The notes beneath the pieces are model-generated. The model saw nothing but the letters and a program-made list of their open reading frames with translations, was not told the DNA's origin and ran no database searches. DNA of 64,000 nt, taken from assembly GCA_964016885.1 (NCBI GenBank), contig OZ024764.1, positions 310,001 to 374,000 of the forward strand, given 5' to 3'. Both the position numbers and the translations under genes were made by a program. Source of the DNA: Eledone cirrhosa. Lineage: Eukaryota. This document shows positions 12,423-14,068 of this stretch, piece by piece (the stretch's first letter is position 1; every line of letters begins with the position of its first letter).

Positions 12423-12583
12423 GAGGGTTTCAATTCGCTATGTTTCTCATAGAACTGCTTCAGTTGTTGGGGGGTCTGTGCCTGGAACGGGGCTTTGCCA
12501 GTTAAACATTGAAAGACAATAGTCCCAATACTCCACAGGTCAGCTTTGGCATCGTATTGGAGGGACATTATTACTTCTGGGGC
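12423..12583 (-). CDS. ULK1: ULK kinase exon (APEVIMSLQYDAKADLWSIGTIVFQCLTGKAPFQAQTPQQLKQFYEKHSELKP)
   Basis: APE and DLWS motifs; tttttcag| and |gtacgt; 161 nt, phase 0-2. Confidence 0.95.
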
Positions 12584-13720
12584 CTGAAAAATACATATTG
12601 GGGGGACATTATTACTTCTGGGGCCTGAAAAATACATATTGGGGGGACATTATTACTTCTGGAGCCTGAAAAATACATATTGGAGGGACATTATTACTTC
12701 TGGGGCCTGAAAAATACATATTGGGGGGACATTATTACTTCTGGGGCCTGAAAAATACATATTGGGGGGACATTATTACTTCTGGGGCCTGAAAAATACA
12801 TATTGGGGGGACATTATTACTTCTGGGGCCTGAAAAATACATATTGGGGGGACATTATTACTTCTGGGGCCTGAAAAATACATATTGGGGGGACATTATT
12901 ACTTCTGGGGCCTGAAAAATACATATTGGAGGGACATTATTACTTCTGGGGCCTGAAAAATACATATTGGGGGGACATTATTACTTCTGGGGCCTGAAAA
13001 ATACATATTGGGGGGACATTATTACTTCTGGGGCCTGAAAAATACATATTGGAGGGACATTATTACTTCTGGGGCCTGAAAAATACATATTGGGGGGACA
13101 TTATTACTTCTGGGGCCTGAAAAATACATATTGGGGGGACATTATTACTTCTGGGGCCTGAAAAATACATATTGGGGGGACATTATTACTTCTGGAGCCT
13201 GAAAAATACATATTGGAGGGACATTATTACTTCTGGGGCCTGAAAAATACATATTGGAGGGACATTATTACTTCTGGAGCCTGAAAAATACATATTGGGG
13301 GGACATTATTACTTCTGGGGCCTGAAAAATACATATTGGAGGGACATTATTACTTCTGGGGCCTGAAAAATACATATTGGGGGGACATTATTACTTCTGG
13401 GGCCTGAAAAATACATATTGGGGGGACATTATTACTTCTGGAGCCTGAAAAATACATATTGGAGGGACATTATTACTTCTGGGGCCTGAAAAATACATAT
13501 TGGAGGGACATTATTACTTCTGGAGCCTGAAAAATACATATTGGGGGGACATTATTACTTCTGGGGCCTGAAAAATACATATTGGAGGGACATTATTACT
13601 TCTGGGGCCTGAAAAATACATATTGGGGGGACATTATTACTTCTGGGGCCTGAAAAATACATATTGGGGGGACATTATTACTTCTGGGGCCTGAAAAATA
13701 CATGTATACAACATTATATA
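12555..13720. repeat. 41-bp tandem array containing a ULK splice acceptor and exon start
   Basis: Minus unit tgtatttttcag|GCCCCAGAAGTAATAATGTCCCYCCAATA; 27 units upstream of the real one. Confidence 0.95.
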
Positions 13721-13734
13721 TATGAAAAAAGAAA

Positions 13735-13952
13735 AGGATGGATCAACTTTCATCAAATCGAACCGAGGAAACCATGTTTCCGTTGGTCTTTCCAATTGCT
13801 AATACTATCTTTCGGTCACAACTCCAGGTAGAAGTAGCAACGTGAAATAAAGTGTCTTGCTCAAGGACATAACACATTGCTCGGTCCAGGAATCGAACTC
13901 ACAACCTCACGATTGCGAATCCAATTCTCTAACCACTCAGCCACATGCCTTC
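13735..13952 (-). mobile_element. tRNA-derived SINE family D; second copy at 33573-33790
   Basis: GAAGGCATGTGGCTGAGTGG...GAGTTCGATTCC head, CORE-like middle, distinct tail. Confidence 0.82.
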
Positions 13953-14068
13953 AAATATATATATATATATATATATTGGAGGGACATTATTACTTCTGGG
14001 GCCTGAAAAATACATGTATACAACATTATATATATAATATATGAAAAGAATAAATAAATAAAAACCTA

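What the first reader, a model, noticed from the sequence alone, without database searches (positions are those of the whole stretch)
12555..14030. 28 extra splice acceptors stacked before the APE exon
Seen: a 41-bp unit made of the last 12 intron bases plus the first 29 exon bases is repeated 27 times (12583 to 13690 is exactly 27x41), with one more copy at 14002 beyond a SINE. Only the 13690 and 14002 copies keep the native upstream intron (atgttgtatacatgtatttttcag). Use of any tandem upstream acceptor reads APEVIMS(P/L)QYVFFRPQK then TAA. Inference: the productive acceptor must be selected by exon definition using a repeat-supplied branch point, and array length could tune productive versus NMD splicing of the autophagy-initiating kinase.
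Basis: partly seen in the sequence, partly recalled or inferred. Interest (0 to 1): 0.8.

Follow-up and report, generated by a model that had tools for sequence, protein, structure and literature searches.

The report
Octopus ULK splice-acceptor "mirage" minisatellite
An octopod autophagy-kinase gene carries 28 extra copies of the boundary between an intron and a catalytic exon, an assembled transcript shows correct splicing to the one complete copy, and the repeat is likely a near-harmless new example of a type already described in lancelets and human genes.

Summary
On the minus strand of an octopod ULK1/2 (unc-51/Atg1) gene, a 41-bp unit (12 intron + 29 exon bases) stands 28 times in tandem, with one more copy at 14002 beyond a SINE-like element. 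All 28 extra acceptors run into a stop within 17-21 codons. Public DNA contigs hold the unit at a depth that fits a long array. An intron-free contig identical to the exon joins exon 7 to the complete exon at 12583 and on to exon 9.

The array is not special to this site: the same exon's donor has 3 extra copies, the exon-2 acceptor has 17, and 46% of the window is tandem repeat. This is the 'mirage' class known from amphioxus, with donor-side cases in human F7 and CBS. This scan noted such arrays before on other pieces of this genome.

Nothing here supports a length-tuned decay switch, but a small leak hidden by NMD is untested. The one open point is a rough excess of arrays on splice junctions (3 of 16). 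Interest is low.

The parts
12423..12583 (-). Productive 161-nt kinase exon ('exon 8', APE...LKP), the only complete copy; numbering assumes one exon upstream of the window's first mapped exon
   Evidence: 100% identical over 53 aa to Octopus bimaculoides ULK2; open frame over 8 exons; spliced contig
12555..13703 (-). Tandem array, 28 x 41 bp (12 intron + 29 exon bases): 27 decoy acceptors plus the productive one; 4 unit variants, 2 variable positions, both exonic
12584..12612 (-). Productive 3' splice site region: 12 intron-derived bases preceded by exon-derived repeat; branch-point candidates (TAAT) at -26 (12609) and -29 (12612), predicted only
13691..13723 (-). Non-repeat intron end ahead of the outermost tandem copy (13690), branch-point candidate at -24
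13730..13953 (-). SINE-like dispersed element (tRNA-type A/B-box-like motifs at its 5' end) between the array and the outer copy
   Evidence: 15 other matches in the window, one of them full length (33572-33791, 88%)
13973..14035 (-). Outer acceptor copy (exon start 14002), 63-bp direct repeat of 13661-13723, running into a TA tract
12160..12444 (-). Donor-side array of the same exon: 69/80-bp units, 3 extra copies of the exon end plus GT donor (80, 149 and 229 bases downstream)
17114..17187 (-). Upstream exon 7 (DFG...MYM), donor at 17114; intron to exon 8 is 4530 nt
321..403 (-). Downstream exon 9, about 12 kb away
33911..38640 (-). Exon 2 (34003-33911) and 17 extra upstream copies of its acceptor plus first ~18 bases, set between TA-rich tracts

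Best explanation
This is a minisatellite made of the intron/exon boundary of a ULK kinase exon; the transcript contig found is spliced to the innermost, complete copy, and the array is likely a tolerated by-product of repeat instability rather than a switch. Shown: the array, its stops, the productive splice form. Inferred: (1) a 41-base stretch across the acceptor was duplicated once and then grew by slippage or unequal exchange (a 6-unit variant block occurs twice in a row); (2) the allele survived because the exon-derived part of the unit happens to put a TAAT branch-like motif and a C/T tract at nearly the spacing of the original intron end, so the last copy is still a working acceptor; (3) with introns of 4.5 and 12 kb on either side the exon is likely recognised by pairing its donor with the nearest acceptor (161 nt), while decoys would give exons of 202-1580 nt and are followed by only 29 exon bases; (4) any leak would make a kinase truncated at the APE motif with a stop at least 148 nt before the next junction, and would likely be removed by NMD.
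For: Array real in the window. DNA contigs of run X1 hold the unit loop at depth 90.5, the unit/non-repeat intron junction at 13.4 and the donor repeat at 9.3; mean 31-mer multiplicities in the window are about 17.9, 2 and 2.1, i.e. 4-7 per copy in all three, consistent with a long array (depth is only a rough guide, and X1 may be the window's own sample). Run X3: one 1957-letter contig, 0 differences over 12423-12584, loose ends equal to exon 7 and exon 9 of the window. Run X11 (another organism label, 19 differences) has the same joins. Annotated octopod proteins have the normal MYM-APE junction. 3 of 16 junctions of this gene are amplified; 46% of the window is tandem repeat. 18 of 28 extra copies carry a Leu-to-Pro change, so no coding constraint. 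Amphioxus mirages are reported not to disturb splicing.
Against: No copy has lost its AG or pyrimidine tract (0 changes in the 12 intron bases of 29 copies); with only 2 variable positions in 41 this is expected about half the time by chance, so it says little. Human donor-side arrays do leak to the nearest pseudo-sites in some genes (6-16, CBS), so a leak here is plausible. The X3 sample is not the X1 sample and its array length is unknown; its kind is not on record and is read as RNA from the intron-free joins. One contig per run cannot measure minor forms. Junction arrays look more frequent than a uniform neutral model gives.
Confidence: 0.8

Rival explanations
1. Unselected leak with a dosage effect: the nearest decoys (12624, 12665) capture a few percent of splicing, the products are degraded, and longer alleles lower ULK output slightly, without being an adaptation.
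For: Decoys match the productive site over the 12 intron bases and carry the same branch candidates; 12624 would give a 202-nt exon, an ordinary size. Human 6-16 and CBS use two pseudo-sites besides the authentic donor. The ABCA7 25-bp VNTR changes splicing and expression with length (review table).
Against: The competing sites are the nearest units, which stay the same whether the array has 5 or 28 units, so length need not matter (inference). F7, LAMIN B2 and PDGF arrays use only the authentic site.
Confidence: 0.12
2. Selected rheostat: array length sets the ratio of productive to NMD-bound ULK transcripts and so tunes autophagy.
For: All 28 extra acceptors are intact and all lead to early stops in the catalytic domain; both ends of this exon are amplified.
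Against: Same kind of array on exon 2 of this gene; an early stop is the default for a unit whose length is not a multiple of 3; units are nearly identical (97%), as in a young or homogenised array; the spliced form found is the productive one.
Confidence: 0.05
3. Assembly or sequencing artefact: a few real copies were inflated.
For: No listed contig spans the array; X1 may be the window's own sample.
Against: Four unit variants in an ordered pattern with a repeated 6-unit block; unit contig 7-10 times deeper than the two-copy junction contigs.
Confidence: 0.03

Closest known systems
Amphioxus 'mirages' (Adh3; globins BflGb6, BflGb9; troponin C; PGBD5). Seen: passages of PMC3087553 and PMC3902484. 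The original Adh3 paper (Canestro et al. 2002, PMC117041) is not held; seen only as a reference line.
   Same: Minisatellite-like tandem copies of an intron/exon boundary; BflGb6 copies the 3' end of an intron plus the exon start, as here; units of 10-160 bp; many keep AG/GT; regular splicing goes on; homogenised units.
   Different: Mollusc rather than cephalochordate; 28 units versus 3-6 in BflGb6; both ends of one exon and a second exon of the same gene are affected; length polymorphism not tested here.
Human donor-spanning VNTRs: F7 IVS7 (37 bp, 5-9 copies), interferon-inducible 6-16, CBS IVS13, LAMIN B2, PDGF. Seen: abstract and Introduction of PMC1557585.
   Same: Identical pseudo-sites repeated into the intron; the exon-adjacent site is used, sometimes with a leak to the next ones. 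The donor array at 12160-12444 is a direct counterpart.
   Different: Those are 5' splice sites. Here the main array is a 3' site, where the productive copy is the last one transcribed, so a simple first-come scanning rule cannot explain the choice.
Splicing-associated tandem repeats (ABCA7 25-bp intron-18 VNTR; Hamanaka et al. 2023). Seen: passages of review PMC13196383 and the search listing with abstract start of PMC10078293.
   Same: Precedent that repeat length can shift splicing and expression.
   Different: There an association with length is measured; here no allele series or expression data exist.
ULK1/2 / unc-51 / Atg1 kinase (O. bimaculoides XP_052822730.1, O. sinensis XP_029655196.2, Argonauta hians GAB1602639.1)
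   Same: Eight exons in the window give an open, near-identical kinase domain.
   Different: First exon and C-terminal part lie outside the window.

Membership tests
Mirage minisatellites | Tandem unit spans an intron/exon boundary of a real gene | tested here: met
   12 intron + 29 exon bases, 28 tandem copies; exon confirmed
Mirage minisatellites | Minisatellite-size unit (10-160 bp in the published cases) | tested here: met
   41 bp; range from PMC3087553
Mirage minisatellites | Copies may keep AG/GT splice signals | tested here: met
   29 of 29 copies keep the AG
Mirage minisatellites | Regular mRNA splicing goes on | tested here: met
   Productive exon7-exon8-exon9 contig in X3; minor forms not measurable, and the array length of that sample is unknown
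Mirage minisatellites | Homogenised units / repeat turnover | tested here: met
   4 variants, 2 variable positions, one 6-unit block repeated
Mirage minisatellites | Length instability between haplotypes or cells | not testable with these tools
   No spanning reads from several individuals were obtained
Regulatory splicing VNTR (ABCA7-like) | Allele length correlates with isoform ratio or expression | not testable with these tools
   No genotype-expression data; only contigs were laid
Regulatory splicing VNTR (ABCA7-like) | Alternative (decoy) splice forms are made | tested here: inconclusive
   Contigs show presence only; NMD would deplete such forms
Long target-site duplication of a SINE insertion (origin of the 14002 copy) | Other insertions show similar long flanking direct repeats | tested here: not met
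   0 of 1 other full-length copy of the same element and 0 of 10 full-length copies of a related element have flanking repeats over 11 bases
ULK1/2 (Atg1) kinase | N-terminal kinase domain orthologous to ULK/unc-51 | tested here: met
ULK1/2 (Atg1) kinase | C-terminal Atg1 domains (PF21127, PF12063) | not testable with these tools
   Outside the window; no whole genome is held

The most novel reading that the evidence does not exclude
Octopod minisatellites are born preferentially on splice junctions, through a process tied to splice-site sequence or co-transcriptional splicing, and only arrays whose innermost copy rebuilds a branch point survive; such arrays then form a natural allelic series of identical competing 3' splice sites with a length-dependent leak into NMD. 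Basis: 3 of 16 junctions here against 0.1-0.3 expected (2 of 15 against 0.08-0.27 after removing the array that prompted the look, Poisson P 0.003-0.03; rough, hand-set unit sizes, one gene).
Probability: 0.15. Interest if true: 0.6.

Novelty: new member of a known kind. Interest (0 to 1): 0.2.

Why it matters
As it stands it matters little: one more mirage, in a lineage where my searches found no report. It is a clean natural test of 3' splice-site choice among identical sites, where the last copy must win. If junction arrays prove enriched genome-wide in octopods, the still unknown origin of mirages (called unclear in PMC3087553) becomes testable. Practically, such arrays can mislead gene annotation.

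Tried and rejected
No whole genome is held, so no genome-wide count was possible.

The run search listed no holder on record as RNA and none with half of the 66 words. Of 21 listed runs, 4 were laid; X6 gave no contig. X3 and X11 had no contig over the unit junction (12589-12630) and the X3 contig runs unbroken through the place where decoy forms would branch; contigs drop rare forms, so this is not counted as evidence. The state of the acceptor in DNA of related organisms stayed untested.

RNA structure as the means of hiding decoys: rejected; six units fold weakly (z -1.49, 15 of 200 shuffles as good, centroid nearly open), and there is no antisense match of 13 or more bases to the unit in the window.

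Mini-exons or a new intron from donors inside the unit: GT sites in the unit match 4-5 of 9 consensus positions against 6-9 for the 8 real donors (crude score); not supported. In-frame insertion by every third decoy: rejected, each decoy meets a stop after 17 codons.

SINE long target-site duplication as a general origin: controls negative; for this one insertion it stays possible.

No look-alike stretch in other genomes of the scan. Searches for a paper on duplicated 3' splice sites and exon proximity gave nothing usable; that principle (Reed and Maniatis 1986) and the 50-55-nt NMD rule are recalled, not read. Searches used three exon edges off by 1-2 bases, corrected; the 20-base junction probes still spanned the true junctions. 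Supplements were not opened for any paper.

Full report
Observation. The repeat is there as described. TRF gives 12555-13703, period 41, 28.0 copies, 97% matches. A motif scan finds 29 acceptor copies: 28 spaced exactly 41 apart (exon starts 12583 to 13690) and one at 14002. Each unit is 12 intron bases plus the first 29 exon bases on the minus strand. There are four unit variants (15, 9, 3 and 2 copies), differing only at exon positions +3 and +23; a six-unit block of variants occurs twice in a row. The 13690 and 14002 copies share a 63-base direct repeat with a longer intron end and flank a SINE-like element at 13730-13953. Of 27 tandem decoys, 22 read ...RPQK-stop and 5 read ...RLQK-stop after 17 codons; the 14002 copy stops after 21.

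The gene. The exon's 53 residues are identical to Octopus bimaculoides ULK2; cluster look-up adds O. sinensis and Argonauta proteins. tblastn maps eight exons in the window. With corrected edges all have AG/GT ends and give one open kinase frame; the exon in question is 12583-12423, 161 nt, between introns of 4.5 and 12 kb. The source is therefore an octopod; the species was not sought.

Is the array real? Of 21 runs listed, four were laid on 12405-12630. Run X1 holds a 71-letter contig equal to one turn of the unit (depth 90.5), a contig joining the unit to the non-repeat intron end (13.4) and one turn of the donor repeat (9.3). The window predicts mean 31-mer multiplicities of about 17.9, 2 and 2.1, so 4-7 per copy throughout. 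Depth is a rough guide and X1 may be the window's own sample, but this fits a long array and not an inflated short one. No contig spans the array.

Which acceptor is used? Run X3 (same organism label as X1, another sample, kind not on record) has one 1957-letter contig with no difference over the exon. Its loose ends are the window's exon 7 and exon 9, so it is a spliced product that uses donor 17114, the complete exon from 12583 and the first donor at 12423. X11, from another organism label with 19 differences, shows the same joins. X6 gave nothing. These contigs show that the productive form exists; they cannot show that decoys are unused, and the array length in the X3 animal is unknown.

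How it likely works. Ahead of the productive AG lie 12 intron bases and then exon-derived repeat. That repeat supplies TAAT motifs at -26 and -29 with no AG before the splice site and 13 pyrimidines in 18 positions; the non-repeat intron end has a TAAT at -24 and 12 pyrimidines. The duplication thus rebuilt an acceptor about as good as the original, which likely explains why the allele is viable (inference). Since the decoys offer the same signals, choice of the last one likely rests on exon definition: nearest acceptor to the donor, and the only one followed by the whole exon (established principle, recalled; not tested). Structure does not hide the decoys. A leak would end translation at least 148 nt before the next junction and would likely trigger NMD (rule recalled from other animals).

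Context. The array is one of three in this gene. The donor of the same exon has 3 extra copies downstream, and the exon-2 acceptor has 17 upstream between TA-rich tracts; the other 13 of 16 junctions have none. TRF covers 46% of the window, with many arrays grown from SINE pieces. A rough Poisson model expects 0.1-0.3 junction-spanning arrays; leaving out the one that prompted the look, 2 are seen against 0.08-0.27 (P 0.003-0.03). This is a lead only: one gene, hand-set unit sizes, and the two arrays of exon 8 may not be independent. A long target-site duplication could explain the 14002 copy, but 0 of 11 control insertions show one.

Comparison. Earlier scan notes gave the name 'mirage' and two papers, which I read in passages. 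PMC3087553 describes tandem duplications of the 3' intron end plus exon start in amphioxus globin BflGb6, units of 10-160 bp across loci, length instability, no disturbance of splicing and an unclear origin; PMC3902484 repeats this for Adh, troponin C and PGBD5. PMC1557585 lists human donor-side arrays, some silent and some leaking to two pseudo-sites. Length-dependent splicing by a VNTR has precedent in ABCA7. Five of six mirage features tested are met; length polymorphism could not be tested. Searches found no paper on such arrays in cephalopods or on splicing of octopus ULK, in a library that lacks most subscription journals. Scan notes list at least three more junction arrays on other pieces of this genome (unchecked AI notes).

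Verdict. Observation confirmed; splice mechanics plausible; regulatory claim unsupported and untested. New member of a known kind. Interest 0.2.

Noticed in passing
window 34003-38640 (-): The acceptor of ULK exon 2 with about 18 exon bases is copied 17 times upstream, each copy ending in a TA tract; two copies lie beyond a LINE-like fragment and a SINE. Partial copies of the same intron end form a 25-bp array at 39334-39456.
   Followed up: partly
window 12160-12444 (-): The donor of the APE exon is copied three more times downstream (69/80-bp units); the spliced contigs use the first donor.
   Followed up: partly
window 5382-7174, 10773-11858, 39779-40303, 42684-44704, 56008-56603, 61523-63839, 27986-28820: Seven arrays of 48, 49 or 139 bp have grown from the same internal part of dispersed SINE-like elements, suggesting a sequence-intrinsic hot spot for array birth.
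   Followed up: partly
window 18640-18820, 16850-17000, 15880-16180, 15220-15460 (-): Several long, near-perfect inverted repeats read by eye in the introns, often next to TA tracts; they could form long double-stranded RNA in a lineage known for heavy A-to-I editing (recalled).
   Followed up: no
window 30874-33169 and 29833-29994: A 65-bp x 35 array and a 37-bp x 4.4 array with no source elsewhere in the window and no link to a mapped exon.
   Followed up: partly
window 36760-38100 and 7900-8520: Fragments that look like reverse-transcriptase (LINE) sequence on the plus strand inside the introns, read by eye.
   Followed up: no
protein P0006 (O. bimaculoides ULK2 record): The annotated protein skips parts of the kinase domain and has TA-repeat-like residue runs near its end, which suggests annotation trouble in repeat-rich octopus introns.
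   Followed up: no
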